From the NCBI GenBank assembly GCA_963709345.1, contig CAVPVX010000007.1, positions 320,001-384,000 of the forward strand: 64,000 nucleotides of DNA, given 5' to 3'. Made by a program: the position numbers and the translations under genes. Positions within the stretch are counted from its first letter, which is position 1. Each line of letters opens with the position of its first letter. A model generated the notes under the pieces. That model was not told the origin of the DNA. It saw only the letters and a list, made by a program, of their open reading frames with translations, and made no database searches. Positions 6,247-53,855 of this stretch are shown here, in pieces. This DNA comes from an uncultured Actinomycetes bacterium (GTDB taxonomy: Bacteria > Actinomycetota > Thermoleophilia > UBA2241).

Positions 6247-6735
6247 TCACGTGGCGGCGCTGAACACCAGCGACTCGGCGCCGTCGGAGCCGAACAGGGT
6301 CAGCGTGTTCCCCGCCAGGTGGACGGAGGCCGCATCCTCCAGCAGCCGCAGATAGACCGACTCCGCCTCCATGTCGGCCTCGGGGCCGGCCATCATCGTC
6401 ACGGCCGGCTTGCCGGCCGAGAAGTCGTTGCCGGGGCCGGTCGTGTACGAGCCGGAGTACGTGTTCACGGCGCTCGTCCCGGATACTTGACCGTCGGCGA
6501 AGGCCGCCGTGATCGTGAAGTCGAGGGGGTCGAGTCCACTCTCGCGCCAGCGCACGAGGGTCCACTCGGTGCCCTCCAGGTCGACGGCCTCGGGCTCGCC
6601 CGATCCGCCGCCGGTACCGTCGTCCGCCCCGTCGCCCCCGCACCCGCCGAGGCAGAACAGCGCTGCTGCCGCCGCCACGACCGCCGCGATGACGATGGCC
6701 ATCGTCACACGCCGTCTGAGCCAAGAGAGTGTCAT
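6247..6735 (-). CDS. META/HslJ-domain lipoprotein
   Basis: Lipobox LGGC; LEGTEWTL...G.S..NTYSGSY...TMMAG..E..YL..L pattern. Confidence 0.75.
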   Translation of the reverse strand: MTLSWLRRRVTMAIVIAAVVAAAAALFCLGGCGGDGADDGTGGGSGEPEAVDLEGTEWTLVRWRESGLDPLDFTITAAFADGQVSGTSAVNTYSGSYTTGPGNDFSAGKPAVTMMAGPEADMEAESVYLRLLEDAASVHLAGNTLTLFGSDGAESLVFSAAT

Positions 6736-16325: not shown

Positions 16326-16390
16326 CGTGTTTCCCCCCTCGCATGTGCGGGCGCGCCGGCGCGGACCGGCCGACCGCGCCGTCCCGGAAG

Positions 16391-16419
16391 ATGCTACGCA
16401 GAGATCCCGCATCGGGCAA
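16391..16419 (-). promoter_or_regulatory. putative sigma70 promoter of mtbB copy 1
   Basis: TTGCCC-17 nt-TAGCAT on the minus strand. Confidence 0.5.
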
Positions 16420-16497
16420 TGGCTGATTGTGCGGCAAACCTCGCGTGCCGGTCGCGCGAACCTGCTCCCCCCGCATGCGAACGGCCAGAGCGACGCC

Positions 16498-16562
16498 TTG
16501 ACACTCCGGCGACGCACTCGGTATCGTGCGGGGACCATCGCGTTAGTTATGTGAACAACCAA
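16498..16562 (+). promoter_or_regulatory. promoter and putative TetR operator of mtbB copy 2
   Basis: TTGACA(16498)-18 nt-TATCGT, then GTTAGTTATGTGAACAACCAA (16542-16562), which matches the operator at 20337. Confidence 0.65.
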
Positions 16563-16601
16563 ATCCACTCGTCCAACGCCCGCGGGCGCCCGGGAGGGAC
16601 C

Positions 16602-17990
16602 ATGGCACAGCGCATCCCGACACGGCTCGGCGACGGCTCGCTCGCCGAGCTCACGCGAGCCGAGATCGAGACCGACCTGCACGCCGGGACTGAGGCGGCG
16701 GTCAAGCGAGCGAAGGTCGAGCCGCTCGCCCAGGGTGAACTCGACCACCTGCTCGACATCTTCACCTCCCCGGCCAAGTTCACCTCGGTGGACTACGGCG
16801 ACGAGGTGATCCTCGGGTTCGACGGCTCGGGCAACGCCGATCTCGGCGCGCCGATCCTCGAGCAGGTCGTCTACCAGAACCATCACGGCGCCGACATGAT
16901 CGAGCTCTGGCATCACGACTACTCGTACAAGGCCGTGCGCACGGTGCTCTCGTTCCAGACGCAGATGCTCAAGGACGCGCAGTTGCAGACGGTGATCCCG
17001 CTCAACTACGGCGCCATGCCCGACCTGGGGCGGTACTCGCAGCCCGACGGCCCCTGCCCCAACTGGTCGGAGCTCATGCCGCTGGGCAAGATCGCGGAGG
17101 CGCGGACCGCGCAGGAGGAGGCGGTCGAGCACGCCGAGCGCGACATGTGGTGCGTGGCCGAGGCGATGGTCGCCGCCGGCGCCGACGGCCTCGACTTCGA
17201 CACGGCCGGCGCGTCCGGCGACGCCGATCTGCTGGCCACACTCAACGTCACTCGGAGGATCCGTGAGACGTGGCCCGACATCGGCGTCGAGATCGGCCAG
17301 GCCGCCGAGCTCGTGCTCGGCATGCACGGTCAGCTCGAGTTCGACGGCGACCGGCTGGCCGGCCAGTGGCCGCTCGGGCAGCTCCGCGCCTGCACCGCCG
17401 CCGGCGCCACCATCTTCGGGCCGGCGGTCAATGTGAACACGACGAAGTCGCTGGCCTGGAACACCGCTCGCGCCTGCACGCTCGTGAAGCCGGTGACCGC
17501 CGAGGCCACCATCCCCGTCCACATGAACGCCGGGATGGGTGTCGGCGGCGTCCCGATGACACCGTATCCTCCGAGCGACGCCACGTCGCGCGCCTCCAAG
17601 GCGCTCGTCGACATCCTCAAGCTCGACGGGTTGTAGGTCGGCATCGGAGACCCCCTCGGGATGGCCTCCTCACACGCGCTCGCCTCGGGCATGGGCGGGA
17701 TGCGGACCGCCGGAGATCTGGTGGCCCGCATGCAGATGACCCGGGGAATGCGCCTTCCGCAGGCCAAGCAGTACGTCGCCGACAAGCTCGGCTGCTCGGT
17801 GCTCGACCTCAGCGACACCGTGGCGATGCACGACATCCGCCGCGACCTCGGCCTCGGCCGCATCCAGGTGCAGGACCTGACGTACGCCGACCACCCGGGC
17901 GCGATGGAGGCGAAGTTCCACATCGCCGACGTTCTCGGCATCCCGATCAACTCCGTGGAGTGCTTCAAAAGGCACGCCGGCGTGAAATAG
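16602..17990 (+). CDS. mtbB: MtbB-family methyltransferase copy 2, pyrrolysine-containing (amber 17634-17636), 462 aa
   Basis: Homology continues in frame through the TAG: [38 protein letters not shown]. Confidence 0.92.
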
Positions 17991-18062
17991 CCGGCGTCGA
18001 AGGGCCGGCCCGCCGCCGGCCCGCCGCGAGCGCCACTGCGACGAAAGACAGCGAGGACGACG

Positions 18063-19533
18063 ATGGCTTCTCAGCTGGACCTCAGCACACGGCAGCCGCT
18101 GCTGCCGCTCGGCTCCGACTTCAAAGTGACGTTCTACGACGCGGCGCGTCTGGACCGCTACCGCGACGCCGTCCTGACGGTGCTCGAGCGCACCGGCGTG
18201 CGCTTCGGCTCGCCGAAGGCGCTCGCCGTCCTCGAGGAGCACGGCGCCGAGGTCGACCGCGCGTCCGGAGTCGTGCGCTTCGCGCCCGACCTCGTGGGGC
18301 GCGCGCTCGCGAGCGCCCCGCGCGACTTCTGGCTCGGCTCCCGCGACGGCACGCTCGACCTCGACCTCGCCGGCGACGAGACCTTCAACACGACCAACGG
18401 CTGCGGCACCGAGGTGATCGACTGGCGGACCGGCGTGCGCCGGCCGCCGACCAAGGACGACCTCTCGGCCATCACGCGGATGGTGGACTACCTGGGCTCG
18501 CTCCAGTTCTGGTGGCCCAACGTCGCCGCCGCCGACTGCGGCGACACCCACACCCTGCACGAGCTCGACGCGGCCTGGAACAACACGCAGAAGCACCTCC
18601 AGGGCATGGTGCAGGGCGAGCGCAAGGCGCGCTACGCGGTCGAGATGGCGACGGTGATCGCGGGAGGGGCGGAGCAGCTGCGCCGCCGCCCCCCGATGAG
18701 CGACCTCATCGGCACGGTCCAGCCGCTCGTCAACGACAAGGAAGGCATCGAGGCCGCGCTCGTGTTCGCCGCGGCCGGCATCCCCGTGTGCTTCGTGACC
18801 ATGCCCACCTACGGGACGACGGCGCCGGCGACCAAGGCCGGCGCCCTCGTGATGGGCTTCGCCGAGCTCATCAGCGCCGACGGTGTGCGTGCAGCTGGCG
18901 CATCCCGGCGCCCCGGTCATCCTCTTCCCCCTGCCGGTCCACGCCGACCCGCGCACGGCCGCGCTGGCGACGGCGCCTCTGAACCACCGCGGCCTCTTCC
19001 TGCCCGGCGAGCTCGTCCATCACTTCGGCCTGCCGTCGATGACGGGGTACGCCGGCACCGACGACGACCTGCCCGGCAGCTGGCTGGCCGCGGCGGAGAC
19101 GGCGCACACGGTCATGCTCGCCGGCATCGTCGGCTCGGAATTGATGACCACCATCGGCCTCACCAACCGGTACCAGCTGTTCACGCCCGAGCACATGATG
19201 CTCGACGACGACCTCTACCGGCGCGCGACGAGCGCGTTTCGCGACCTGGAACTGGACGAGGAGACGCTGGCGCTCGACGTCATCGACGCCGTCGGGCCCG
19301 GCGGGCACTTCCTGGGACAGCCGCACACCCGCCGTCACATGAAGGAGACCGTGGAGCGCTCGATCGGTCAGGAGATCGGCCCGGACGGCGCGCACCTGCG
19401 GGATGCGCTCGAGGTCGCGCGCGAGCGCGGCCTCGACATCCTCGAGAACTACGCGCCGGAGCCGCTGGACGCGGCCAAGGCGGCGGAACTCGCGAGGATC
19501 TGCGCCGCCGCGGACGCGGAACTGCGCGGGTAG
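18063..19533 (+). CDS. mttB: MttB-superfamily methyltransferase, non-Pyl (Gly at the Pyl site), +1 frameshift near 18878
   Basis: VLERTGVRF, TTAPATKAG, LALDVIDAVGPGGHFL.QPHT motifs. The frame switches at AELISA/TVCVQLAHPGAP; the paralog at 23919 is intact there. Confidence 0.8.
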
Positions 19534-19601
19534 GGCGGCGGGGCAGGGCGCTGAGCCACAGCCCGCGGTCGGACCGCGAGCTGCTCAGCCGAAGCCCGGG
19601 G

Positions 19602-20222
19602 TCAGTCCGGGTCGCCGCCAGACTCGACGTACCCGAACACCAGACGCCGCCAGAGATCGAAGGCGGGGCCGACGTCGAGGTCGGGGTCGGCCTGCACCTG
19701 CAAGGCGACTCCGTCGGCGATGGCCACGGTGAGCATCGCCAGCGGCTCGATGTGAGCGGGCGGCTCCTTGTCCACCGCATCCTTGAGCGCCCAGGCGTCG
19801 AGGCGTCGGTACCACTCGAAGAGGTCGCGCAGATGCGGCCGCAGGTGCTCGTCGCGGATGACGTGAGGGATGACCTCGAAGAACATGCGGTACGCATCCC
19901 GGTCTTTCGGCAGACCCTCGTGCAGGCGCATGAGCTGCGTCCGCCGCTCGTCCCCCGCCGGCACCGTCGTCAGCTGCTCGATGAGGTCCACGCTCTCCTG
20001 GTAGAGCACCGAGTCGACCAGCGCCGTAAGCAGACCCGCCTTGTTGCCGAAGTGGTAGCGGATCAGAGCGGGGTTCTCTCCGGCCTCGCGAGCGATGGTC
20101 GAGAACGTCAGCGCGCGAAACCCGTCGCGAAACAGCACGCGCTTGGCGGCGTCCAGGATGCGCACCGCCGTCGGCGGCAGATCCGGCGTTGGATCGCTTA
20201 TCGGCAGCTCGTACCTTCCCAT
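19602..20222 (-). CDS. TetR-family transcriptional regulator
   Basis: RILDAAKRVLFRDGFRALTFSTIAREAGENPALIRYHFGNKAGL HTH; divergent from the mtbB3 operon. Confidence 0.9.
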   Translation of the reverse strand: MGRYELPISDPTPDLPPTAVRILDAAKRVLFRDGFRALTFSTIAREAGENPALIRYHFGNKAGLLTALVDSVLYQESVDLIEQLTTVPAGDERRTQLMRLHEGLPKDRDAYRMFFEVIPHVIRDEHLRPHLRDLFEWYRRLDAWALKDAVDKEPPAHIEPLAMLTVAIADGVALQVQADPDLDVGPAFDLWRRLVFGYVESGGDPD

Positions 20223-20300
20223 CGCCCCGCCCCTTTCTGCACGCGCGGCGCCTCCCGGGGCGCCGGCGCCCCGGCCGGCGCCGTGCGCAAGCGCCGACGC

Positions 20301-20356
20301 TTGACAGCCTCCGGTCGTCTGCTAGTCTACCGCATCAGTTAGTTGTGTGACTAACT
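20301..20356 (+). promoter_or_regulatory. promoter and palindromic operator of the mtbB3-mttB-corrinoid operon
   Basis: TTGACA-16 nt-TAGTCT with extended -10 TG; inverted repeat AGTTAGT-TGTGTG-ACTAACT at 20337-20356. Confidence 0.7.
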
Positions 20357-20385
20357 AATCATCGCCTTCACCCTGGAGGTACCAT

Positions 20386-21783
20386 TTGGAACGGTCCGTG
20401 CGCACACGACTCGGCGACGGCTCGCTCGTCGAGATGACGCCGAGCGAGATCCGCGCCGATCTCGTCGAGGGTATGGAGCTCGGCGCCCGCCGCGCCAAGG
20501 CCCCACCGCTGAGCGAGGCCGAGATCGACCACCTGCTCGACATCTTCGCCAGCGAGGCGAAGTTCAGCGCCGTCGACATGGGCGACGAGATCGTGCTCAG
20601 CTTCGACGGCACGGGCAATCTCGACTCCGGTGCGCGCGTCGACGAGCTCTACAGCTACCAGAGCCACCGCGGCGCCGACATGCTCGAGCTCTTCTCCATC
20701 GACTACTCGTACAAGGCGATCAAGACGATCCTGAGCTACGAGACCCAGGTGATGAAGGTCGCCCAGCTCAACACGCTGGCGCCGCTGCAGTACGGCGCCA
20801 TGCCCGACCTGGGCCGCTACTCCATGCCCGACGGCCCTATCCCCAACTGGTCGGAGCTCATGCCGCTCGGCCGCATCGAGGAAGCGCGCGACGCGCAGGT
20901 GGCGGCCATCGACCATGCCGTCGCCGACATGGTCTTCGTCGCCGAGGGCATGTGGGAGGCCGGCGCCGACGGCATGGACTTCGACACCGCTGCCGCGGCC
21001 GGCGACGGCGATCTGCTTGCCACGCTCACCGCGGTCGAGAAGATCAAGCACAGGCACCCCGACTGCGGGATCGAGCTCGGGATGGCCAGCGAGTGCGTCC
21101 TCGGGATGCACGGCGAGCTCACCTACAAGGGCCGGCGCCTCGCCGGGATGTGGCCCCAGGACCAGGTCCAGGTCGCCCAGGAGGCCGGCGCCACCATCTT
21201 CGGTCCGGCGGTCAACGTCAACACGACGAAGAGCGTGGCCTGGAACGTGGCGCGCGCCTGCACGATCATCAAGCCGGCGATGGCGGTCGCCGAGATCCCC
21301 GTGCACCCGAACGTGGGCATGGGCGTCGGCGGCGTGCCGATGAGCCCCTATCCCCCAGCCGACGCCGTGTCTCGCGTCTCGCGCGCACTGGTGGACATCC
21401 TCAAGTGCGACGGGTTGTAGGTGGGCGTGGGTGACCCTCTGGGCATGGCGTGCACGCACGCGCTCGCCTCGGGCATGGGTGGAATGCGGACCGCCGGAGA
21501 TCTGGTGGGCCGCATGCAGATGACCCGGGGCATGCGCCTCAAGCAAGCCAAGACCTACGTGGCCGGCAAGCTCGGCGTCTCCGTCGCCGACCTCGCCGAC
21601 CCCATCGCCATGCACGACGTGCGCCGGGACCTCGGCCTCGGCCGCATCCCGGTGCAGGAGCTCACGTACTCGACGCACGCCGGCGCCATGGAGGCGAAGT
21701 TCCACATCGCCGAGGTGCTGGGCGTCCCGATCAACAGCGTCACGCGCTTCCAGGAGTGCGCCGGGCTGCACACCCGGGCCTGA
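20386..21783 (+). CDS. mtbB: MtbB-family methyltransferase copy 3, pyrrolysine-containing (amber 21418-21420), 465 aa
   Basis: TTG start after [39 protein letters not shown]. Confidence 0.92.
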
Positions 21784-21811
21784 TGAAGCTCACGAGCAAA
21801 GGAGGGCCGCT

Positions 21812-23281
21812 GTGAAGCGGAACCTGCACGCCGGCGGCGCCCGCAGCCGCGGGCTGAGCGTCAACGTGTTCACCGACGCCGAACTGGACGAGATCCACCT
21901 CGCCACGCTCGAGGTGCTCGAGCGCACCGGCGTCTTCGTCGAGGACGGCGAGGCGATCGACATCTTCAAGGACGGCGGCTGCCGGGTCGACCGCGAGACG
22001 CGGATGGTCCACATCCCCCCGTTCGTCACCGAGGACGCGATCCGGTCGGCGCCCAGCAGGTACACCCTGTACGGGCGCGACCCGAAGAACGACGTCGTCA
22101 TGGAGCCGGGGCGGGTCGCCTTCACGAACTTCAGCGAAGGCCTCCGCGTGATCGACCCGGAGACGGGCGAGCAGCGCGAGTCCACCAAGCAGGACATCGC
22201 CGACATCGCCCGCCTCAACGATTACCTCAGCGAGATGGACACGCACGAGATCTCCGTCGGCGCCGCGGGAGTGCCGCCGTCCACGTGCGCGGTCCACAAC
22301 AGCGAGATGCAGTTCCTCAACACCACCAAGCCGATCGGCGTCGGTCCGCTCAGCCGGCTCGAGGTCAACGCGATCTTCCGTATGGCCGCGGAGATCGTCG
22401 GCGGCGAGGACGAGCTGCGCGAGCGGCCCATCCTGTACAGCGGGGTCTGCCCCGTCAGCCCGCTCAAGCTGCCGCGCGACGTGACCGAGGTGGTCATCGA
22501 GTCGTCGCGCTGGTGGATCCCGGACAACATCCTCAGCATGGCCATGGCCGGCGGATCCAGCCCGGTCACCCTGGCCGGCTCGCTCGTCACGCACAACGCC
22601 GAGGTGCTGGCCGGCATCACGCTGGCCCAGCTCACCGAGCGCGGCTGCCCCGTCATGTACGGCAGCTCGACCACCGCCATGGACCTCAAGCTCGCAGCCG
22701 CATCCGTCGGCTCGCCGGAGATCTCGCTGATCAGCGCCGCGGTGGCGCAGATGGCGCGGCGCTACCTGCTCCCCAGCTTCGTGGCCGGGTTGTAGACGGA
22801 TTCCAAGCTCGGTGACGCGCAGGCCGGTCACGAGAAGACCCTCACCGGACTCACGGCAGCGTTGGCAGGGGCCAACCTGATCTACGGGGCGGGGATGATC
22901 GAATCGGGCGTCACCTTCGACAGTGCGCAGTTCGTGATGGACAACGAGATCGCACGCATGATCAAGCACGTGGTCGGCGGCATTCGCGTGGACGACGAAA
23001 GCCTGGCGGTGGAGGACATCGCCAAGGTCGGCGCGTTCGGCGACTTCCTGAGCCTCGACGCGACGCTGACACACATGCGCGAGCTCAGCCAGCCGACGGT
23101 GCTCGACAGGCGCGTGCGCGAAGACTGGGAGGCGCGCGGGTCGACCGACCTCTACACCCGGTGCCTCGAGACCGCGCGCGACGTCCTGCATGAGTACCGG
23201 CCCGAGCCGGTACCCAACGACGTCGCCGCACGCATCCATGCCATCGTCGAAGAGACCGACCGCGCCGCCGGCGTCGGCTGA
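21812..23281 (+). CDS. mttB: trimethylamine:corrinoid methyltransferase MttB, pyrrolysine-containing (amber 22793-22795, codon 328), 489 aa
   Basis: YLLPSFVAGL*TDSKLGDAQAGHEKT...ALAGANLIYGAGM matches the canonical Pyl-MttB AGx-O-(S/T)DxK...AGHE pattern; SMAMAGGSSPVTLAG and HNAEVLAGI motifs. Confidence 0.93.
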
Positions 23282-23292
23282 AGGAGACCCGT

Positions 23293-23919
23293 ATGAACGA
23301 CCAGCTCAAGCAGGCCATCATCGCCGGCGACGCCGATGTGGCCACCGCACTCACGACGGCGCTCCTCGCCACCGGGGCCACGGCGCGGGAGATCCTCGAC
23401 TCCGCCCTGCTCCCCGGCATGGAGGTCGTCGGCACGCGCATGCGTGACGGCGAGTGCTTCATCCCCGAGGTGCTGCTCTCCGCCCGCGTCATGCAGGCCT
23501 GCCTCGACCTGCTGCGCCCGCACATGGCCGCCGGCGACGAGGCCGGCGGCGGCGTGGTCGTGATCGGCACCGTCGAGGGCGACCTGCACGACATCGGCAA
23601 GAACCTCGTCGGCATGCTCCTGCAGGGGGCCGGCTTCACGGTCGTCAACCTCGGCACCGGGGTGACGGCGGCCGACTTCGTCGCCGCCGTCAAGGAGCAC
23701 GCGCCGAAGATCATCGGCATGAGCGCCCTGCTCACGACCACCCTGCCGCACATGGCCGAGACGATCGCCGCGCTCAAGGCCGAGGGCCTGCGCGACTCCG
23801 TCAAGGTGATGGTCGGCGGCGCCCCGGTGACCGCCGCCTACGCCGACGAGATCGGCGCCGACGGCTACGGCGCCAACGCCGGCATGGCGGTGGAGCGGGC
23901 GAAGGAGCTGGTGGGGTAG
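23293..23919 (+). CDS. methylamine-type corrinoid (B12-binding) protein, MttC/MtbC-like
   Basis: FIPEVLLSA cap domain; GTVEGDLHDIGKNLV; SALLTTT; VMVGGAPV. Terminal TAG overlaps the next GTG. Confidence 0.92.
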   Translation: MNDQLKQAIIAGDADVATALTTALLATGATAREILDSALLPGMEVVGTRMRDGECFIPEVLLSARVMQACLDLLRPHMAAGDEAGGGVVVIGTVEGDLHDIGKNLVGMLLQGAGFTVVNLGTGVTAADFVAAVKEHAPKIIGMSALLTTTLPHMAETIAALKAEGLRDSVKVMVGGAPVTAAYADEIGADGYGANAGMAVERAKELVG

Positions 23920-25412
23920 TGCCCGCGCCGCCACCCGCGGGCGCTCCTGCAGAACAGGCCGGACCGCGGCAGCAGCCGTTGGCGCCCCTGCGGTCCGACT
24001 TCCCGTGGCGCTTCCATGACGAGGCGGAAGTGGAGCCGCTACGCGAAGCGACCCTTCGGCTCCTCGAGACGACGGGCGTGCGTTTCGAGTCGCCAAAGGC
24101 GCTCGCGATCCTGAAGAGAGCCGGCGCCAGGGTGGACGAGGGTTCCGACCTCGTCCGTCTGCCTCGCCGGCTGGTCGCCGAGGCGCTCGCCCTGGCGCCG
24201 CGGCGGTTCACGCTCGGCGCCCGGGACGCCGCCTGCGACCTCGAGCTCGGCTCCAGCGCGACATACGGCACTACCGACGGCTGCGGCGTGGAGGTCGTCG
24301 ACTGGCACTCAGGCGAGCGTCGCTCGTCCACCAAGGCCGACCTCGAGGCGATCACGCGTATGCAGGACTGCCTCGGCTCCATCTGCTACTGGTGGCCCAC
24401 GGTGAGCGCCGGCGACTGCGGTGAGACGGCCCAGCTCCACGAGATCGAGGCCGGCTGGAACAACACGAGCAAGCACCTCATGGGCATGGTGCAGGGCGAG
24501 GCGCTGGCGAAGGCGGCCGTCGAGATGGCGACCACCGTGGCCGGCGGGGCCGAAGAGCTCCGCCGCCGACCTGTCATGAGCGACCTCATCGGCACGGTCT
24601 CGCCGCTCACGCACGACAAGGACGGGATCGAGGCCGGCCTGGTCTTCGCCGAGGCCGGCATCCCCGTCTGCTACGTCACCATGCCGAACCTCGGCACGAC
24701 GGCGCCGGCGACCAAGGCCGGAGCCTTCGTCGTGGGCGCCGCCGAGATCGTCGCCGCGGCGGTACTCCATGAACTCGCTTCGCCCGGCGCACCGGTGATC
24801 GGGTCGATCATGCAGATCTACGCCGACCCGCGCACGGCGCTCACCATGACATCCCCCCTCGACGACCGCTGCCGCTTCCTGGCCACGGAGCTGCTGCACA
24901 GCTTCGGCCTCCCGGCGCTCGGGCCGTTCGGCGGCACCGATGCGGCGGCGCCGGGGACATGGCTCGCCGGCGTCGAGACGATGCTCCAGTTGTTGCAGGT
25001 GCCGCTCGACGGCTGCGAGCTGTACACCGGTATCGGTCTCACCAACACGTATCAGCTGTTCACGCCCGAGGCCCTGATCCTCGACGACGATCTCTACCAC
25101 CGCGCGAGGCACGCCTTCCTCGACATCCCCATGGATGAGGAGTCGCTCGCGCTTGACGTGATCGAGGCCGTGGGTCCCGGAGGGCACTTCCTCGCCCAGC
25201 CACATACGCGCCGGCACATGCCAGACGCGGTCCTGCGCGCGGTGAGCCAGGAGATCGGCCCCGACGGCCAGCACTACCGCGACCCGGTGGAGGTGGCGCG
25301 AGAGCGCGCGCTGGCCATCCTCGAGCGCTACGTCCCGCAACCGCTGGAGGAGAACGCTCAGGCGGAACTGCGAAGGATCGTCGCAGCGGCAGACCGCGCG
25401 GTGCGCGGCTAG
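23919..25412 (+). CDS. mttB: MttB-superfamily methyltransferase, non-Pyl (Gly at the Pyl site)
   Basis: Close paralog of the 18063 gene; FGLPALGPFGGTDA aligns with the Pyl region; GPGGHFLAQPHT. Confidence 0.85.
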   Translation: MPAPPPAGAPAEQAGPRQQPLAPLRSDFPWRFHDEAEVEPLREATLRLLETTGVRFESPKALAILKRAGARVDEGSDLVRLPRRLVAEALALAPRRFTLGARDAACDLELGSSATYGTTDGCGVEVVDWHSGERRSSTKADLEAITRMQDCLGSICYWWPTVSAGDCGETAQLHEIEAGWNNTSKHLMGMVQGEALAKAAVEMATTVAGGAEELRRRPVMSDLIGTVSPLTHDKDGIEAGLVFAEAGIPVCYVTMPNLGTTAPATKAGAFVVGAAEIVAAAVLHELASPGAPVIGSIMQIYADPRTALTMTSPLDDRCRFLATELLHSFGLPALGPFGGTDAAAPGTWLAGVETMLQLLQVPLDGCELYTGIGLTNTYQLFTPEALILDDDLYHRARHAFLDIPMDEESLALDVIEAVGPGGHFLAQPHTRRHMPDAVLRAVSQEIGPDGQHYRDPVEVARERALAILERYVPQPLEENAQAELRRIVAAADRAVRG

Positions 25413-25439
25413 CGCTCGCAAGCGCCTCGCCGCCCCCGT

Positions 25440-26249
25440 CTACTCGAGCAGCATGCGGTCGACGGCGAACGCCTCGCCGGCGACCTCGTGGAACTTCTCG
25501 ACGAGGTCGCTCACCTGGAGCGCCGCCTTCTGCTCCTTGTCGATATCGAGGACGACGCGACCGCCGTGCATCATGACGAGACGGTCGCCGTAGCGCAGCG
25601 CCAGCTCCATGTTGTGCGTCACCATGAGCGTCGTGAGGCCGCGCTCGGCGATGATCGCGGCCGTGAGGTCCATGATCGTGGCCGCGACCTTTGGGTCGAG
25701 CGCGGCCGTGTGCTCGTCGAGCAGCAGGAGGCTCGGCTCGGCGATGGTCGCCATGAGCAGCGACATCGCCTGCCGCTGGCCGCCGGAGAGCTTGTTGACG
25801 CCGGCTTTGAGCCGGTCCTCCAAGCCCATACCGAGTCGTGAGAGCTGCGCGCGCATGACCTCACGGCGGCGGTGCGTCACGCCGCGACGCAGGCCGCTGC
25901 GCTTCTGGCGCATCAGCGAGATGGCGAGATTCTCCTCGATGGTCATCGACGGCGCCGTGCCGGCGCGGGGATCCTGGAACACCCTGCCGATCAGGCGACT
26001 GCGCACGTGCTCGGCCTGCCGCGTGACGTCGCGGTCACCGAGTTGGACCTTGCCGGCGCTGACGGGGAAGGTGCCGGCGACCGCGTTGAGCAGCGTCGAC
26101 TTGCCCGAGCCATTGGAGCCGATGATCGTCACGAACTGGTCCGCGGGGACGACCAGATCGATCCCGTTGAGGGCGACGACCTCGTTGGCCGTGCCGGGGA
26201 AGAACACCTTGCGCAGCCCGCTTATCTCGAGGGGAGCCGGGGCGCTCAC
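25440..26249 (-). CDS. ABC transporter ATP-binding protein
   Basis: GSNGSGKST, LSGGQRQ, LLLLDEHTAALDP motifs. Confidence 0.92.
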   Translation of the reverse strand: MSAPAPLEISGLRKVFFPGTANEVVALNGIDLVVPADQFVTIIGSNGSGKSTLLNAVAGTFPVSAGKVQLGDRDVTRQAEHVRSRLIGRVFQDPRAGTAPSMTIEENLAISLMRQKRSGLRRGVTHRRREVMRAQLSRLGMGLEDRLKAGVNKLSGGQRQAMSLLMATIAEPSLLLLDEHTAALDPKVAATIMDLTAAIIAERGLTTLMVTHNMELALRYGDRLVMMHGGRVVLDIDKEQKAALQVSDLVEKFHEVAGEAFAVDRMLLE

Positions 26250-27148
26250 AGCCGCACCACCTTGCGGCGGACGGTGGGTATGGAGAGCGCGATGACGACG
26301 AGCAGCGCCGTGAGCAGCTTGAGATCGGTGGGCGCGATGCCGAGGCGCAGGCTGATGGCTATGAGCAGCCTGTACACGATGGAGCCACCGATGACGCTGA
26401 AGAGCACCCAGCTGACACTGCGCACGCCGAAGATGACCTCGCCCATGATCACCCCGGCGAGGCCGGCGACGATCGTCCCGATACCCATGCCCACATCGGC
26501 GAAGCCCTGCTGCTGGGCGACCAGCGACCCGGTCAGGGCGACGAGCCCGTTGGCGATGGACAGCCCGACGATGCGCGTGAAGTTGGTGTTGGTGCCCATG
26601 GCCCGGATCATCTGCTCGTTGTCGCCGGTGGCCAGCAGCGTGAGCCCGAACTCCGTGTGCAGCAGCCAGTCGAGGATGTACTTGACGACGATGGCGAGCG
26701 CGGCGACGACGAGGACGACGTTCCACCCGACCATGGTGAGCGAGAACAGCGCCCCGATCTTGTCGAAGATGACCTCGACACCGAGCAGCGGGGTGTTGCT
26801 GCGCCCCATGATCCGCAGGTTGACGGTGTACAGCGCCGTCATCGTGAGGATGCCGGCGAGCAGCTTGGGACCGTAGTTGGTCGAGTTGTTGTCCCCGGAC
26901 TTGAGCAGCAGATGCAGGAAGCCGGTGACGACCCCGGCGCAAAGCCCCGCGCCCACGCCGGCGGCGGTGGCGACGAGCGGCGACTGCCCGCTCACGATGA
27001 GCGCTCCCGTGACGGCGGCTCCAAGCGGCAGACTGCCGTCGACGGTGAGGTCGGGAAAATCGAGGACGCGGAAGGTGAGGAAGACGCCGAGCACCATGAA
27101 GCAGTAGATGAGGCCCTGCTCGAGGGCGCTGGACATGATCACTTCCAC
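26246..27148 (-). CDS. ABC transporter permease (TrpY/aromatic amino acid-type family)
   Basis: FRVLDFPDLTVDGS.PLG; GFADVGMGIG; multiple transmembrane segments. Confidence 0.9.
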   Translation of the reverse strand: MEVIMSSALEQGLIYCFMVLGVFLTFRVLDFPDLTVDGSLPLGAAVTGALIVSGQSPLVATAAGVGAGLCAGVVTGFLHLLLKSGDNNSTNYGPKLLAGILTMTALYTVNLRIMGRSNTPLLGVEVIFDKIGALFSLTMVGWNVVLVVAALAIVVKYILDWLLHTEFGLTLLATGDNEQMIRAMGTNTNFTRIVGLSIANGLVALTGSLVAQQQGFADVGMGIGTIVAGLAGVIMGEVIFGVRSVSWVLFSVIGGSIVYRLLIAISLRLGIAPTDLKLLTALLVVIALSIPTVRRKVVRL

Positions 27149-27166
27149 GTGCCGCTCACTTCCGTA

Positions 27167-27205
27167 GTCGGGGCCGGGACCGCTGTTCGCGGTCCCGGCC
27201 CCGAC
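27167..27205. terminator. intercistronic 17-bp hairpin after the substrate-binding protein gene
   Basis: GTCGGGGCCGGGACCGC-TGTTC-GCGGTCCCGGCCCCGAC. Confidence 0.6.
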
Positions 27206-27245
27206 GATTCTATCGTGCCTGCGCCCATTGTGGCCGCCAGACGCC

Positions 27246-28256
27246 TCAGAACTTGCTGACGGCCTCGCTCACGAGGTCGGCCGGGATGGTGACGCCCTGG
27301 TCCGCGGCGGCCGTCTCGTTGATCGAGAGCTGCAGGTTGGCCGCGTACTCCACCGGGATCTCCGCGATCGGCGTGCCGCCGAGGATCATCGCGGCCTGGT
27401 AGCCGGCCTGCATGCCGAGATCCTTGTAGTCGAAGCCGTACCCGGCGGCAGCGCCGCGCTTGACGCTGTCGGTGTCGCCGGCGAGCAGCGGGATCTTGGC
27501 CTCGTTGCAGACCTTGACGATCGCCTCGAGGGCGGTGACGGCGGTGTTGTCGCCGATCACGGCGATGGCGTCGACGCGGCCGACGAGCGACTTGGCAGCG
27601 GCCTGCACCTCGGAGGAGTTGCCTGCCGTGGCGTCGACGATCTCGAGCCCCATGGCGCCTGCGGCCTCTTTGGCGGCCTCCACGATGTAGACCGAGTTGG
27701 ACTCGCCGGCGTTGTAGACGATGCCGACCGACTTGGCGTCGGGGTTGAACTGCTTCGCCAGTTCAAGGATGGGCTCGACGGGCTGCAGGTCGCTGACGCC
27801 CGTGACGTTGGCATCGGGCGACTCGGGGTTCGCGACCAGACCGGCGCCCACGGGGTCGGTCACGGCGGTGAAGACGATCGGCGTCGTCTTGTCGGCCTTC
27901 ACCACCGCCTGGGTGGTCGGGGTCGCGACGCCGAGAATCAGATCGAGCCCGTCGGCGGCGAACTTCTGGGCGATGCTGGCGGTCGTCGCCATGTCGCCCT
28001 CGGCGTTCTGCATGTCGTAGGTGACGTTGCTGAAGCCCTTCTCGGCGAGGGCTTCCTTGAAGCCTTCGACGGCGGCGTCGAGCGCCGGGTGGCTGACGAT
28101 CTGCGTGATACCGATCTTGTACGCTTTGGTGGTGTCGGCGCTGGCGCTCGGGCTGCTCTCGGTGTCCCCGTCGCCGCCGCAACCGGCGATGACGCCGGCG
28201 AGGGCCACGATGGCGAGCAGCGCCATGAGCAGGCTCAGCTTGAATGCGCGAGGCAT
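27246..28256 (-). CDS. ABC transporter substrate-binding lipoprotein (TrpX-like, ABC_sub_bind)
   Basis: IAGC lipobox; IGITQIVSHPALDA; TAVTDPVGAGLV; NVTGVSD; AAGGAG RBS. Confidence 0.9.
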   Translation of the reverse strand: MPRAFKLSLLMALLAIVALAGVIAGCGGDGDTESSPSASADTTKAYKIGITQIVSHPALDAAVEGFKEALAEKGFSNVTYDMQNAEGDMATTASIAQKFAADGLDLILGVATPTTQAVVKADKTTPIVFTAVTDPVGAGLVANPESPDANVTGVSDLQPVEPILELAKQFNPDAKSVGIVYNAGESNSVYIVEAAKEAAGAMGLEIVDATAGNSSEVQAAAKSLVGRVDAIAVIGDNTAVTALEAIVKVCNEAKIPLLAGDTDSVKRGAAAGYGFDYKDLGMQAGYQAAMILGGTPIAEIPVEYAANLQLSINETAAADQGVTIPADLVSEAVSKF

Positions 28257-28334
28257 CGTTCTCCTTTTTCCTGTTGTCCACGGACGAATGCGACATTCTA
28301 GTGCGCGGCGCCCGCCGGGCACAACCCCCAGGCT

Positions 28335-28348
28335 CATGAATATTCATG
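28335..28348. promoter_or_regulatory. AT-rich perfect palindrome upstream of the ABC promoter
   Basis: CATGAATATTCATG, just upstream of a minus-strand TTGTGC-18 nt-TAGAAT promoter. Confidence 0.5.
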
Positions 28349-28479
28349 GTCTACGCGACGACGATGGGGCGACCGAGCCTGCAAGCAGGTCCATTGGACC
28401 ACAGAATACTCCATTAGTGCATGGACGCTCACCAGTCTCTCACCTCCGAAGGACGCGCGGCGCACCCCCGCTCCGGCAC

Positions 28480-28517
28480 GCCGAAGGGCGGGGCCGCACG
28501 CGGCCCCGCCCTTCGGC
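28480..28517. terminator. hairpin downstream of mtbB copy 4
   Basis: GCCGAAGGGCGGGGCCGC...GCGGCCCCGCCCTTCGGC inverted repeat. Confidence 0.6.
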
Positions 28518-28602
28518 TCTCTCTCGACGGCACACCTGTCGTCGTGGCCGGCCGCCGCGCGACGGGCGGGCCTCCCGCCCCTCCCCGCGCCGGCTCGTAC
28601 CT

Positions 28603-29988
28603 TTACAGGCGCGCCCGCTCCTTGAACCGCTCGACGCAGTTGATCGGGATATCGAGCAGCTGGCTGATGTTGAACTTGGCCTCCATCATGCCCGCCTCGC
28701 CGGGGTGCGTGGCGGACGTCACGCTGAGCAGCCCCAGGCCATGCTCCTTGCGGATCAGCTCCATGGCCACGGGGTCGCTGAGGTCGCGCGTCGAACAGCC
28801 GAGCTTGCCGGCCACGTATTCCTTGGCTTCCTTGAGACGCATGCGTCTGGTCATCTGCATCCGAGCCACGAGATCTCCCGCTGCCCGCATACCGCCCATG
28901 CCGGACGCCTGCGTGTGGGCCGACTCCATACCGAGAGCGTCGCCCGTGCCCACCTAGTAGCCGTCGATCTTGAGGATCTCGACGAAGGCCTTGCTCGCCC
29001 GCGAGGTCGCGTCGGCCGGCGGGTAGAGGCACGTGGGGACGCCGCCGACGCCCATGCCCACGTTCACGTGGACGGGGATCGTGGCGACCTCGGCGGCCGG
29101 CTTGATGAAGGTGATCGCCCGGGCGATGTTCCAGGCGGTCGACTTGCCTGTGTTGATGTTGACGGCCGGCCCGTAGATGCTGGCGCCGGCCTCGGTGACC
29201 ATGCGCAGTTGGTCCTTGGGCCACATTCCGGCGAGCCTGCTGCCGTCAAACTCGAGCTGGCCGTGCATGCCGAGCACGAACTCGGCCGCCATGCCGATCT
29301 CGATGCCGAGCCACGGGTACTTCGTGCGCAGCTTGCGGCAGGCGGTGAGGGCGGCGAGGAAGTCGGCGTCGCCCGCCGCCCCGGTCGTGTCCATGTCGAT
29401 GCCGTCGGCGCCGGCCTCGATCATGGCGTCGGCGACGAAGCCGATGTCCTCGACCAGCATCTCGCACGCCTCCACCTGGGCGTCGCGCGCCTCGGCGATC
29501 TTGCCCATCGGCAGCAGCTCGGACCAGTTGGGAATGGGGCCGTCCGGCTTGGAATACCGGCCCAGGTCGGGCATGGCGCCGTACTGCACGGGGTTGGTGA
29601 GCAGCGCCTGGGCGATCTTCATGGTCTGGCCCTCGTGGGCCACGTTGGTCTTGACGGCCTTGTACGAATAGTCGGCCTGCCACAGCTCGACCATGTCGAT
29701 GCCGACGACCGTCTCGTAGCTCTGCAGGTCTTGCACGCGGTTGCCGATGTGCTTGGTCCCCGTACCGTCGTTCGACATGACGACTTCGTCGCCGATGTCG
29801 ACGGCGGTGAACCGCGCCGCCGAGGCGTAGATGTCGAGCAGGTGGTCGAGCTCCTCCTGCGTGAGCTCGGGCACCTTGGCCTTCTTGGCCGCGATCTGGG
29901 TACCGGCCTCGAGATCGGCCTTGATCTCGGAACGCGTCAGCTCGACGAGCGACCCGTCACCCATGCGTGTGGGGATCCTGGGCTCCAA
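28603..29988 (-). CDS. mtbB: MtbB-family methyltransferase copy 4, pyrrolysine-containing (amber 28954-28956), 461 aa
   Basis: [38 protein letters not shown]. A TTG start puts the amber at codon 345; alternative ATG at 29994. Confidence 0.92.
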
Positions 29989-30311
29989 TGGCATCACCTC
30001 CGTGCGTCGTCCGGGTCGACCGCTTACGGCGTGGCGGTCACCAGGGCCTGCGGAGAGCCACGTGTGAGAGAAGCGAATCGACCGCTGGTAAGCAGGCCTC
30101 GCGCGCAACTGTACAGCAGCCCGGCGACGGCGCGCCACCGGGTCGCGACGACCCCGAGGCCGGTCTTCAGGCGGCGGCCGGCGAGCGCCGCGGAGGGCGG
30201 GGCGGGAGAAACCACGAACGTCGCCAAGGCGATCGTGACGGCCACGCGCGCCGCGTCACGTCACTCCATGCCCCGCATCCGGCGCACCCGCCCCGCGCCG
30301 CACGCGCACTC

Positions 30312-30387
30312 TGGAGCCGGCGGGCGGAATCGAACCGCCGACCTGCCGCTTACAAGGCGGCTGCTCTGCCAGCTGAGCTACGCCGGC
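30312..30387 (-). tRNA. tRNA-Thr(TGT)
   Basis: Reverse complement GCCGGCGTAGCTCAG...GCCGC-CTTGTAA-GCGGC...GGTTCGATTCC...GGCTCCA. Confidence 0.96.
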
Positions 30388-30477
30388 CCGGTGCCAAGTC
30401 TACCGCAGAGGAGCCATGCCGCGGATCGGGGATGGAGTCGCGGTCGAGGATCCGTCATCCACGCGTGTCCACGGTCG

Positions 30478-31878
30478 TCAGGAGACGGCAGGACCTCGGC
30501 GCGTCCGCTCCGCGAACGCCTCGACCGAGCGCACCGGCAGGTCGAGCACATCCGTGATGGTGAACTTGGCCTCGATCGCCAGCGCGTCGGCGGTCGTCGC
30601 CGTGTCCTCGCTGGGGATCGTCCCCAGCCCGAGCTCACGTCGCACGTCCCACATGACCACCGGGTCGCTCAGATCTCCCGGCTCCACGCCGAGCTTGTCC
30701 GCCACGGCCGCCTTGGCCTCGGGGAGTCGCATCCTTCGCGTCAGCTGCATGCGGGCCACCAGATCTCCGGCGGTCCGCAGTCCGCCCATACCCGACGCGA
30801 CACCATGCCCTATCCCTTGGCTGTGGTTGTCGCCGGCTCCTATCTACAAACCGTCCAGCCGCAGGATGTCGACGCAGGCGCGCGAGGCGCGCGAGACGGC
30901 ATCGACCGGCGGCAGCGCGTGCATGGGCACGCCGCCGACGCCCATGCCGCCGTTCATGTGTACGGGGATCTCGGCGGCGCGGGAACACGGCTTGACGATG
31001 GTGCAGGCGCGCGCGACGTTCCAGGCGACCGACTTGCCGGTGTTGACGTTGACGGCCGGACCGAAGACCGAGGCGCCGGCCTGCGCCGCCAGGCGCATCT
31101 GCGCCTCGGGCCAGAGCCCGGCCAGCCGTACGCCCTCGTACTCGAGCTCGCCGTGCATGCCGAGGACGAACTCGCTCGCCATGCCGATCTGGATGCCCCA
31201 GTCCGGGTATTTCGCGCGGATCCGCTCGATGGCGCGCAGCGCCGCCAGGAAGTCGGCGTCGCCCGCGGCGCCGGCGGTGTCGAGGTTGATGCCGTCGGCG
31301 CCCGCCTCGTACATGCCCTCGGCGACGTAGACGATGTCGTCGACGGCCAGCTCGACGGCCGCCTCCTGGGCAGCGCGGGCGTCGTCGATCCTGCCCAGCG
31401 GCAGTAGCCGCGACCAGTTGGGCACCGGCCCGTCGGGTTCCGTGTAGCGCCCGAGGTCCGGCATGGCGCCGTAGTTGCACGGAATAGTCAGCAGGAGTTG
31501 CGCCCGGCGCATCGTCGCCTGCTCGAAGGGCAGCACCGGCTTGATCGGCTTGAAGGAGTAGTCGTGATGGTAGAGCTCGACGGTGTCGGTGCAGACTGTC
31601 TGCTCGTAGTTCTGCAGGTCGTTGATGCGTGAGCCGGCGTCCTGGCTGCCGACGCCGTCCGAGGTGAGCACCACCTCGTCGCCGATGTCGACGGCGGTGA
31701 ACCGCGCGGGGCTGGCGAAGATGTCGACCAGGTGGCCGAGCTCACCCTCGTCGAGCGGCTCGACCTTGGCTCGCCGGACGGCCGCCTCCGTGCCGTCGCG
31801 TACCTCGGCTTCGATGCCGGCACGGCTCATCCGCACCAGCGAGCCGTCGCCCATCCGTGTCGGGATGACGCTGTCCAT
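30478..31878 (-). CDS. mtbB: MtbB-family methyltransferase copy 5, pyrrolysine-containing (amber 30844-30846), 466 aa
   Basis: [45 protein letters not shown] RBS. Confidence 0.92.
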
Positions 31879-31959: not shown

Positions 31960-31988
31960 AGGCTACACTCCGCGAGCGCGCCTGTCAT
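31960..31988 (-). promoter_or_regulatory. putative promoter of mtbB copy 5
   Basis: ATGACA-17 nt-TAGCCT on the minus strand. Confidence 0.5.
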
Positions 31989-32095
31989 GAACGCATCATT
32001 CGGCAAAGTTGGCGGCGCGCGTAGCGCAAAGGTGGGTGAAGACCGCGTCGCCGCAAGCCGGGCGCATCTGCGCGTCGCACGGCGCACTCGAACGG

Positions 32096-32545
32096 TTAAA
32101 GGGGCGAGGCCCCGCGGGGAGACGGGGCCTCGTTCAAGGGTCTTGGGGGAGAACCCTCGAGGGGGGTGTGATCGCTTGTCAGCGACTGGAGCCACTACTG
32201 ATACTGCCCCGCGATTGTTGAGTGCACGTGAAGTGCGCGTGAAGTCGCGGGTAGCCGCTTGAAGCGAGTAGTGCCTGGACGCTACGAGGCGACGAGGCGC
32301 CGCGAGACAAGGCTCGAAGCCCGATCCTCGGCCCCACGTCTTCGCTCCCGTTAACAGACCGAGGGCCGACGAGCCCGGTCGCTCCAAAGCGACCGTTCCG
32401 CCGGCCCTCAGGCCGTGCGGTTCGCCCGGGGCCGGGGCGAACCAGCAGGAAGATAGGAGGTACCAGCACTTGTCGCTGGCAGCGGGCTTCTCGGAGACGG
32501 GAAGCGTCGCACGACGGACGCTAGAAGCGAGATGCGAAGGAAGTA
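32096..32545 (-). ncRNA. candidate ~450-nt structured non-coding RNA of unknown family
   Basis: About ten consecutive stems; G-U pairs occur on the minus strand; C-rich loops; AT-rich patch at the 5' side; terminator-like hairpin at 32105-32132. Confidence 0.55.
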
Positions 32546-32657
32546 TTAATCGATTATTAATGGATATGAAGTGAGCAGCCTATTGTGGCTGCTTCAAGGC
32601 GACCGATAGTGATAGGTTCATGACCGATTTGAAGACCTTTGGGGGCCCGCCCCGATC

Positions 32658-35558
<2,901 letters not shown>

Positions 35559-53706: not shown

Positions 53707-53855
53707 CGGACCCTCCTTCCGTCGGTGACGCCGAAGTGGCGACACCAGCCTCGACTCTACCAGCAGACGTCCCGCCTCACAGCCCGATCGAGGCCTCGCA
53801 GGGTGGACGATAGCCGACTCGCAGGCCACCCGGTGAACGAGTACACTCGCGCTTC

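What the first reader, a model, noticed from the sequence alone, without database searches (positions are those of the whole stretch)
32096..32545. Unannotated ~450-nt highly structured RNA with anti-Shine-Dalgarno-like C-rich elements between ligA and mtbB5
Seen on the minus strand, a run of stems: GCCAGC/GCTGGT (32462-32480); GGTTCGCCC/GGGCGAACC (32419-32443); nested GAGGGCCGGCG/CGTCGGCCCTC around CGGTCGCT-TTGG-AGCGACCG (32361-32409); a multibranch domain closed by CACTACT/AGTAGTG with CCCGCGA/TCGCGGG (32193-32273); TCGCT-GACA-AGCGA; TCGAGGGTT/GACCCTTGA (32134-32160); and a final 10-bp hairpin followed by CCCCTTT. The mismatches are G-U on this strand and A-C on the other, which gives the orientation. 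Unpaired parts include ACCTCCT (an exact anti-SD), CACCCCCC, CTCCCCC and TCTCCCC. An AT-rich palindromic patch (ATTAAT-N5-ATTAAT) lies at the 5' end. I do not recognise RNase P, tmRNA, SRP or riboswitch signatures. Inference: a large trans-acting or scaffold ncRNA, reminiscent of C-rich-loop regulators such as RNAIII.
Basis: partly seen in the sequence, partly recalled or inferred. Interest (0 to 1): 0.7.

Follow-up and report, generated by a model that had tools for sequence, protein, structure and literature searches.

The report
Two tandem C-rich small RNA genes
The stretch between ligA and mtbB holds two separately conserved, structured elements that are likely two small regulatory RNA genes rather than one long RNA; each has its own predicted promoter, and both likely block ribosome-binding sites of mRNAs under a cell-envelope two-component regulator in an uncultured actinobacterial family.

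Summary
The stems are real, conserved and on the minus strand, but they are not one 450-nt RNA. Comparison with relatives splits the region into two units. RNA A (about 32510 to 32357/32304) has covarying hairpins and a near-invariant unpaired ACCUCCUAUCU that matches this genome's 16S tail at 10 of 11 bases. It matches no Rfam family and was found in 54 of 89 genomes of the family. RNA B (about 32195-32098) resembles 6C RNA but scores at most 34.7 bits (cut-off 47). Each unit occurs without the other, and B also occurs as stand-alone copies carrying its upstream DNA. A matrix trained on relatives' htrA promoters ranks the two promoters 1 and 2 of 145,421 sites; htrA lies behind a WalR/MtrA-like response regulator. 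Best reading: two trans-acting anti-Shine-Dalgarno sRNAs under that regulator, working like streptococcal csRNAs. Transcription, regulator binding and targets are unshown; no specific target was found. Three look-ups of the scan's notes returned only the neighbouring mtbB genes, not this element.

The parts
32658..34925 (-). ligA, NAD-dependent DNA ligase; upstream neighbour (start codon not fixed)
   Evidence: NCBIfam PRK07956 812.6 bits over cut-off 369; upstream of the element in 21 of 21 genus loci
32613..32632 (.). conserved motif upstream of promoter A (consensus CAAAnCGnTCnTGAACCT); role unexplained, possibly a further regulator site
   Evidence: alignment consensus; coordinates
   Evidence: 41 homologs: commonest hexamers CTTCAT 24, GTTAAT 23, GTTAAC 25, CTTCGC 19; rank 1 of 145,421 with the htrA-trained matrix
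32518..32523 (-). -10 element of promoter A (predicted), TAGCGT
   Evidence: TAnnnT 5-7 nt before the RNA's first GCG in 41 of 41 genus loci and in 50 of 53 metagenome loci with enough upstream DNA
32304..32510 (-). RNA A (predicted sRNA). Conserved core 32510-32357: hairpin 1, hairpin 2 (32481-32461), anti-SD linker, hairpin 3 (32444-32419), hairpin 4 (32414-32357). A fifth hairpin (32329-32304) is diverged in this copy; 3' end uncertain
   Evidence: covariation; fold z -5.55 for 32350-32510; 54 of 89 family genomes
32449..32461 (-). anti-Shine-Dalgarno linker ACCUCCUAUCUUC of RNA A; unpaired except for its first A
   Evidence: ACCTCCTATCT in 39 of 41 homologs; unpaired in the consensus fold; 10 of 11 identical to this genome's 16S 3' tail ACCTCCTTTCT
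   Evidence: CTTCAC at -27 in 35 of 40 and CGCAAC at -16 in 29 of 40; stems not conserved; carried along by 6 of 6 stand-alone B copies; rank 2 of 145,421
32201..32206 (-). -10 element of promoter B (predicted), CAGTAT
   Evidence: G.G[CG]AnnnT at a fixed distance in 40 of 43 copies
32098..32195 (-). RNA B (predicted sRNA, about 100 nt, 6C-like): 5' hairpin 32185-32172, C6 linker 32170-32161, C-loop hairpin 32159-32135, terminal C-loop hairpin 32132-32105, CCCCTTT tail
   Evidence: fold z -5.63; pairs; 6C score 25.6 bits vs cut-off 47; second copy at G000:C1:203115-203219
31960..32010 (-). separate conserved promoter of mtbB (predicted): AACTTTGCCGAA motif, -35-like ATGACA, -10 TAGCCT
   Evidence: conserved block in the alignment, also present where RNA B is missing; coordinates
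30844..31878 (-). mtbB dimethylamine methyltransferase up to its in-frame TAG (reading continues to about 30478); downstream neighbour, not part of the RNAs
   Evidence: TIGR02368 positions 7-355 and 375-464 in two ORFs; PYLIS_2 at 30747-30846

Best explanation
The interval holds two conserved, covarying structured units in tandem that are likely two independently transcribed small RNAs, likely switched on by one OmpR-family response regulator and predicted to repress translation by pairing their unpaired anti-Shine-Dalgarno and C-rich segments with ribosome-binding sites. Shown: two modules with conserved structure, independent occurrence, and one shared promoter geometry. Inferred step 1: phased (S/A)TT(A/C)A(C/T) boxes ending 10 bp before a -10 element are class II activator sites. 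Inferred step 2: the regulator is the WalR/MtrA-like protein encoded with a WalK-like kinase directly upstream of htrA (G000:C1:379308-383198), whose promoter carries the same boxes. Inferred step 3: RNA A's ACCUCCUAUCU and RNA B's CUCCUUUC and C-runs pair with AGGAGG/GGGG-type leaders of several mRNAs, as 6C and csRNAs do. Together they would form the post-transcriptional, repressing arm of a cell-envelope response.
For: Two units: stand-alone B copies with promoter B in 4 genomes (6 copies). B without A sits directly after ligA in 4 of 4 sampled genomes of genus g18, where A was found in 0 of 12. A occurs without B in 8 of 9 inspected loci of genera g15/g75 (one has an assembly gap) and in 18 of 55 metagenome loci. 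Structure: A has 8 of 35 pairs with two-sided change, 0/500 shuffles; a second set has 8 of 26, with one pair C-G 26 / U-A 20 / U-G 8. B has 3 of 23 within the genus and 17 of 23 across genera on a model-fitted alignment. Promoters: identical -16/-27 geometry. The htrA-trained matrix beats the pstS-trained one at 34-41 of 41 A boxes per position and 39-40 of 40 B boxes. Genome-wide ranks are 1 and 2 (htrA matrix) versus 17,041 and 290 (pstS matrix). The regulator was found in 44 of 46 family genomes. Seeds: conserved and unpaired; match to own 16S tail. Precedent: CiaR boxes 10 bp before -10 drive anti-SD csRNAs and CiaR also drives htrA (PMC3091779, PMC4507080, passages); 6C represses via C-rich loops (PMC6486639, passages and section 20).
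Against: No transcript evidence. No specific target: the only perfect complement of 10 nt or more to the linker in the genome is the locus itself, and predicted binding tracks plain SD strength (Spearman 0.88 with the 16S tail). The regulator link is partly circular: htrA was picked from a scan trained on promoters A and B and I wrote the extraction patterns. Boxes were anchored in only 14 of 30 htrA loci; they are not seen before htrA in four g15 loci although g15 carries RNA A. This genome's own htrA -10 departs from the consensus. The regulator is also present in genomes lacking both RNAs, and three other OmpR-family proteins were not tested. RNA A has no U-tract terminator, so read-through into B is open. 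Seven of 23 B pairs never vary within the genus. This copy has lost two seeds common in relatives: the C-rich loop of hairpin 4 and the 5' CUCCUUUC of B.
Confidence: 0.6

Rival explanations
1. Same two sRNAs, but under another regulator: the PhoB/PhoP-like protein beside pstSCAB, one of the three untested OmpR-family proteins, or an unrelated factor.
For: pstS promoters have the same -16/-27 geometry in 28 of 30 loci. The pstS promoter still ranks 41 with the htrA matrix. GCTAAC appears at A's -27 box in 4 of 41. OmpR-family proteins bind similar direct repeats (recalled).
Against: pstS boxes have C at position 2 in 55 of 56 sites, whereas A and B boxes have T in 111 of 123 and 40 of 40. The pstS matrix ranks promoter A 17,041.
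Confidence: 0.17
2. One long transcript of about 415 nt from promoter A reads through B and acts as a single multi-domain regulator; B would be a processed or secondary product.
For: No terminator-like site was found. A and B are adjacent in most genus loci and in 34 of 55 metagenome loci. S. coelicolor 6C is reported to have three transcripts with different ends (PMC5014011, passage). The whole stretch folds at z -5.3.
Against: The intervening segment conserves phased boxes and a -10, not pairs; it varies by insertions of up to about 65 nt. A and B each occur alone, and B travels with its own promoter.
Confidence: 0.1
3. RNA A works by binding a protein or the ribosome (sponge, scaffold or 16S-tail mimic) rather than by pairing with chosen mRNAs.
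For: Sequence conservation exceeds what the stems need: hairpin 3's loop is invariant in 41 of 41 and 61 columns are invariant in a 36-sequence alignment. The layout of hairpin plus ACCUCCU resembles the 16S 3' end. No standout mRNA target was found.
Against: No sequence similarity to helix 45 beyond the tail. The linker is internal, not 3'-terminal. Three g15 copies change it to ACCUCCAU. Anti-SD linkers between hairpins are the usual seeds of csRNA and AbcR (PMC3091779, PMC8844928).
Confidence: 0.08
4. A cis-acting element: leader or attenuator of mtbB, ligA 3' UTR or terminator array, or the antisense strand of a small protein gene.
For: mtbB follows in 19 of 21 genus loci. On the plus strand an AGGAGG is followed by a possible start codon in 35 of 41 homologs.
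Against: mtbB has its own conserved promoter. A is followed by tRNA-Thr without mtbB in 4 of 9 other-genus loci and 9 of 55 metagenome loci. B stands alone beside unrelated genes. Antisense ORFs range from 15 to 97 codons with no common length.
Confidence: 0.05

Closest known systems
6C RNA (Rfam RF01066; M. tuberculosis 6C sRNA)
   Same: RNA B ends in two hairpins with C-rich loops followed by CCCUU and has a third, less conserved 5' loop, as described for M. tuberculosis 6C (PMC6486639 section 20). Same phylum. 6C is the top-scoring Rfam family for B.
   Different: Scores 21.6-34.7 bits, below the cut-off of 47. Loops mostly have 4 C (6 or more in 5 of 43 and 10 of 43), with an extra C6-7 linker and a 5' anti-SD. 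It lies next to ligA rather than near partitioning or pilus genes (PMC1950547, passage). The predicted activator is OmpR-type, whereas C. glutamicum 6C is under SigA/SigB, LexA and RamA (PMC5014011, passages).
csRNAs of the streptococcal CiaRH regulon
   Same: Several sRNAs with an anti-SD between stem-loops; direct-repeat boxes 10 bp before the -10 element; htrA in the same regulon (PMC3091779, PMC4507080, passages).
   Different: No Rfam match to csRNA families was listed. The box is STTAAY/STTCAY, not NTTAAG-N5-TTTAAG. The regulator's helix reads TVDVHIRHLREKL, not VVEVYVSKVRKKL. Different phylum; A and B are unlike each other apart from shared C-rich loops.
AbcR1/AbcR2 of rhizobia
   Same: Two tandem sRNA genes in one intergenic region, each with its own promoter, using anti-SD motifs in loops and linkers on many mRNAs (PMC8844928, passages).
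   Different: AbcR1/2 are homologous to each other, Hfq-bound, and controlled by different factors (LsrB, RpoH1); here the two RNAs differ in fold and share one predicted regulator. No Rfam match.
WalR (TGTWAH-N5-TGTWAH) and MtrA regulons
   Same: The commonest -27 box of promoter A, GTTAACA, read on the other strand is TGTTAAC, a WalR half-site (consensus from PMC4168254, passage). The candidate regulator's best profiles are RpaB, YycF and MtrA, and the kinase's is WalK.
   Different: All scores are below the curated cut-offs (YycF 248/340, MtrA 241.5/300, WalK 299.6/725), and most boxes fit the WalR consensus only partly.
Staphylococcal RNAIII
   Same: C-rich unpaired seeds thought to pair with G-rich ribosome-binding sites; two-component control.
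   Different: RNAIII is one long RNA with a coding region; here there are two short units, no conserved ORF and no Rfam match.

Membership tests
6C RNA (RF01066) | score at or above the Rfam gathering threshold (47 bits) | tested here: not met
   window 25.6; 8 of 20 genus copies listed at 21.6-28.8; 10 of 20 further loci listed at 22.8-34.7
6C RNA (RF01066) | two adjacent hairpins with C-rich loops and covarying stems | tested here: met
   (on a model-fitted alignment)
6C RNA (RF01066) | at least 6 C in each of the two loops | tested here: not met
   runs of 6 or more in 5 of 43 (loop 2) and 10 of 43 (loop 3); 5 and 4 in this copy
6C RNA (RF01066) | represses mRNAs through the C-rich loops | not testable with these tools
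   duplex scan gave no specific target
csRNA (CiaR-dependent) | NTTAAG-N5-TTTAAG CiaR box | tested here: not met
   boxes end in C/T, not G
csRNA (CiaR-dependent) | direct repeat ending 10 bp before the -10 element | tested here: met
   hexamer starts 16 bp before the -10 in both promoters
csRNA (CiaR-dependent) | unpaired anti-SD between stem-loops | tested here: met
   RNA A linker, 39 of 41
csRNA (CiaR-dependent) | sequence homology to csRNA families | tested here: not met
   no such family listed at E up to 10
Known large ncRNAs in Rfam 15 (RNase P, tmRNA, SRP, 6S/Ms1, OLE, raiA, ROOL, GOLLD, RNAIII) | covariance-model match | tested here: not met
   no gathering-level match in the interval; only weak unrelated hits; ARAGORN finds no tmRNA in the window
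WalR/MtrA regulon | regulator is a WalR or MtrA ortholog by curated cut-off | tested here: inconclusive
   best profiles RpaB/YycF/MtrA and WalK, all under cut-off
WalR/MtrA regulon | regulator binds the boxes | not testable with these tools
   motif sharing with htrA promoters only
Pho regulon | boxes match those before pstS | tested here: not met
trans-acting sRNA (kind) | discrete transcript | not testable with these tools
   no run to lay reads from (see Tried and rejected)

The most novel reading that the evidence does not exclude
RNA A is a 16S-tail mimic: a hairpin followed by ACCUCCUAUCU that, under the family's core WalR/MtrA-like envelope regulator, masks Shine-Dalgarno sequences broadly and shifts translation toward leaderless mRNAs. 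RNA B is the deep-branching ortholog of 6C RNA, which would place the ancestral 6C under a cell-envelope two-component system.
Probability: 0.12. Interest if true: 0.8.

Novelty: new variant of a known kind. Interest (0 to 1): 0.5.

Why it matters
It yields one RNA family absent from Rfam 15 (RNA A) and a divergent 6C-like family (RNA B) in an uncultured lineage labelled Thermoleophilia; four literature searches on that class listed no sRNA study. Both come with a predicted promoter and a named candidate regulator, so the claims can be tested directly. If right, a high-GC actinobacterial lineage has arrived at the same circuit as streptococcal CiaRH (envelope two-component system, htrA, anti-SD sRNAs), and the boundary and ancestral control of the 6C family need revising. 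The kind of mechanism is known, so the surprise is moderate.

Tried and rejected
Expression: the look-up of sequencing runs listed no RNA holder; this is no evidence either way, and no reads were laid. RF01066 search of the own genome gave no match but scored only 150 of 1248 candidates and reached the cut-off in 0 of 14 controls, so it is uninformative. The sigma-70 and terminator scan found neither promoter nor a terminator. Targets: no unique complement. mtbB leaders (n=9) and mttB-like leaders (n=35) pair better than average with the A linker (p=0.0008, 0.0004) but equally with the 16S-tail control (p=0.003, 0.0001), so no specific targeting; gene starts came from my own simple caller. Pho-box reading rejected. 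Antisense small ORF rejected. Integration-site idea for B: no duplicated 3' end in the own genome, an integrase fragment beside 1 of 12 stand-alone loci, and the apparent duplication in L051 is an assembly artefact. No exact match in viral contigs. Two weak R1 hits outside the family (2 of 124 genomes, 28-30 bits) showed only a terminal hairpin and were set aside. A first regulon scan with a filter on the -16 box dropped promoter A from its top 22; without the filter it ranks first. Duplicate loci of the same place (15) were removed before counting, and L057 (contig end) was left out of A counts. bioRxiv 10.64898/2026.10.21.760802: main text has no 'Thermoleophilia' or '6C RNA'; its supplements were not seen and could contain these elements as clusters, as could supplements of other motif-discovery papers I did not open.

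Full report
Observation. The 450-nt stretch folds better than shuffles on both strands (z -5.3 minus, -4.5 plus). It lies between ligA and an amber-containing mtbB. No Rfam family reaches its threshold in it; the best weak hit is 6C over the last two hairpins, 25.6 bits against 47.

Distribution. The window is G000:C7:320001-384000. The interval matched 20 of 24 same-genus genomes and 0 of 16 genomes of six other families of the class, then 42 of 53 genus genomes. ligA is upstream in 21 of 21 loci and mtbB downstream in 19 of 21. Two named records carrying RNA A are titled uncultured Thermoleophilia, one Actinomycetes and one delta proteobacterium; earlier scan notes on look-alike windows also say Thermoleophilia. 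The class label rests on these.

The region is two units. The alignment shows a conserved 5' block, a variable spacer and a conserved 3' block. The 3' block (B) has a second copy in the same genome. In all, 6 stand-alone copies in 4 genus genomes carry the same upstream DNA beside unrelated genes. A covariance model of B found it in 13 of 26 other family genomes and weakly in 2 of 124 genomes of other families; in genus g18 it sits directly after ligA with no 5' block. A model of the 5' block (A) found it in 54 of 89 family genomes, once each apart from one marginal second hit, and in 0 of 150 other genomes of the phylum. In nine loci of genera g15 and g75, A is followed by tRNA-Thr (4), by mtbB without B (4) or by a gap (1). 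Of 55 metagenome loci with A, 34 have B, 18 lack it and 3 are too short. In 9 genus genomes where RNA A was not found and the ligA end was, ligA is followed directly by tRNA-Thr in 8 and by mtbB in 1 (a tenth had no ligA match).

Structure. RNA A: 98.5% of cells pair, 8 of 35 pairs change on both sides, 0 of 500 shuffles reach this. A largely separate set of 54 distinct sequences gives 8 of 26, including C-G 26 / U-A 20 / U-G 8 at one pair of hairpin 3; that set was selected on hairpin 1 sequence, so hairpin 1 is not tested by it. Wobble intermediates fix the minus strand. RNA B: 98.9% paired but only 3 of 23 two-sided changes within the genus; 17 of 23 across genera on an alignment fitted to the model. 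These shuffles ignore relatedness, and R-scape was not available.

Promoters. Both units have an nAnnnT element 5-7 nt upstream (41 of 41; 40 of 43; found with patterns that require it, but at fixed distance), with hexamers starting 16 and 27 bp before it and further ones at about 10.5-bp steps. The AT-rich palindrome is two such boxes. This copy of promoter B has one extra 11-bp box unit, which keeps helical phase. A scan of the genome with these boxes gave 8 hits, among them the DNA before htrA and before cydA. htrA follows a response regulator and kinase whose best profiles are RpaB/YycF/MtrA and WalK, all under cut-off; the regulator is in 44 of 46 family genomes. In relatives the htrA promoter keeps STTCAY, CTTAAY, CTCAAC and GTTAAC-N10-CATnnT (14 of 30 loci anchored), while pstS promoters keep a different GCTAAC pair (28 of 30). 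A matrix from relatives' htrA boxes ranks promoters A, B and the second B copy 1, 2 and 28 of 145,421 positions; the pstS matrix ranks them 17,041, 290 and 10,292. The test is partly circular, since htrA was first found with the A/B boxes. Boxes are not seen before htrA in four g15 loci, and three more OmpR-family proteins were not examined.

Seeds and targets. ACCTCCTATCT is in 39 of 41 A copies and CTCCTTTC in 35 of 43 B copies. The genome's own 16S tail reads GATCACCTCCTTTCT, so these are 10 of 11 and 8 of 8 matches. This window's B copy has CTCCAGTC instead, and its hairpin 4 loop is TTGG where 25 of 41 copies have a C4 run. Duplex scans over 2,851 self-called genes found no standout target; predicted binding follows ordinary SD strength, and mtbB/mttB leaders are no more enriched than for a 16S-tail control. 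An antisense small ORF is not conserved.

Mechanism. Shown: two conserved structured modules, their independent occurrence, shared upstream geometry, conserved unpaired anti-SD/C-rich segments. Inferred: transcription; activation by the htrA-linked regulator; translational repression by pairing at ribosome-binding sites. Confidence in the two-sRNA anatomy alone is about 0.85; in the whole chain 0.6.

Comparison. RNA B works like 6C but fails the score and six-C tests, so it is filed as 6C-like, not as a member. RNA A has no family. The circuit resembles CiaRH with csRNAs and htrA, and the tandem layout resembles AbcR1/2; neither is homologous. Papers seen: PMC6486639 (passages and section 20), PMC5014011 (passages), PMC1950547 (one passage), PMC3091779 (passages), PMC4507080 (passages), PMC4168254 (passages), PMC8844928 (passages), bioRxiv 10.64898/2026.10.21.760802 (term search of main text). 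No supplements were read. RNAIII features and the general behaviour of OmpR-family boxes are recalled. Searches pairing Thermoleophilia with sRNA or RNA-motif terms listed no paper on these RNAs; the library lacks most subscription journals.

Verdict. A real and apparently undescribed pair of small RNA genes, a new variant of a known kind; interest 0.5.

Noticed in passing
L250-L279 (pstS upstream regions); G000:C1 about 275310-275350: A predicted Pho box for this family: CTGAC, then GCTAAC-N5-GCTAAC ending 10 bp before a TAGnnT -10, anchored in 28 of 30 loci; a PhoB-like regulator and a kinase lie directly upstream.
   Followed up: partly
window 32613-32632: Conserved motif CAAAnCGnTCnTGAACCT upstream of promoter A in most genus loci; may be reversed boxes or a site for another factor.
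   Followed up: no
window 31995-32010: Conserved AACTTTGCCGAAGTAT motif ahead of the mtbB promoter, a candidate site for a methylamine-responsive regulator.
   Followed up: no
window 15193-30846: Five PYLIS_2 and one PYLIS_3 Rfam hits mark amber-containing mtbB/mttB genes; a self-made gene call gave 9 mtbB-like and 35 mttB-like ORFs in the genome. Covered by earlier scan notes.
   Followed up: no
G000:C2:417653 (+), C1:314788 (-), C7:582507 (+), C10:91788 (-): Further box arrays, one before cydA (cytochrome bd); possible members of the same regulon. Conservation not checked.
   Followed up: partly
G000:C1:202210-203219 (L064): The second RNA B copy lies convergent to a phage-integrase C-terminal fragment; no att-like duplication found.
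   Followed up: partly
L315 (G042:C93): ligA is followed almost directly by mtbB, with both RNAs and the mtbB promoter missing: deletion or mis-assembly.
   Followed up: no
L051 (G021:C1 about 53850-54580): Long poly-A/poly-C run between a full B copy and a repeated terminal hairpin: assembly artefact.
   Followed up: yes
L153: A record titled 'uncultured delta proteobacterium' carries ligA, promoter A, RNA A, promoter B and RNA B at high scores; probably a label issue, transfer not excluded.
   Followed up: no
window 6638-6731 (-): ARAGORN calls an atypical tRNA with unresolved anticodon; Rfam lists nothing there at gathering level.
   Followed up: no
L102, L104, L095, L096: Stand-alone B copies in genera g18 and g16 recur downstream of telA and convergent to msrB (SelR domain).
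   Followed up: partly
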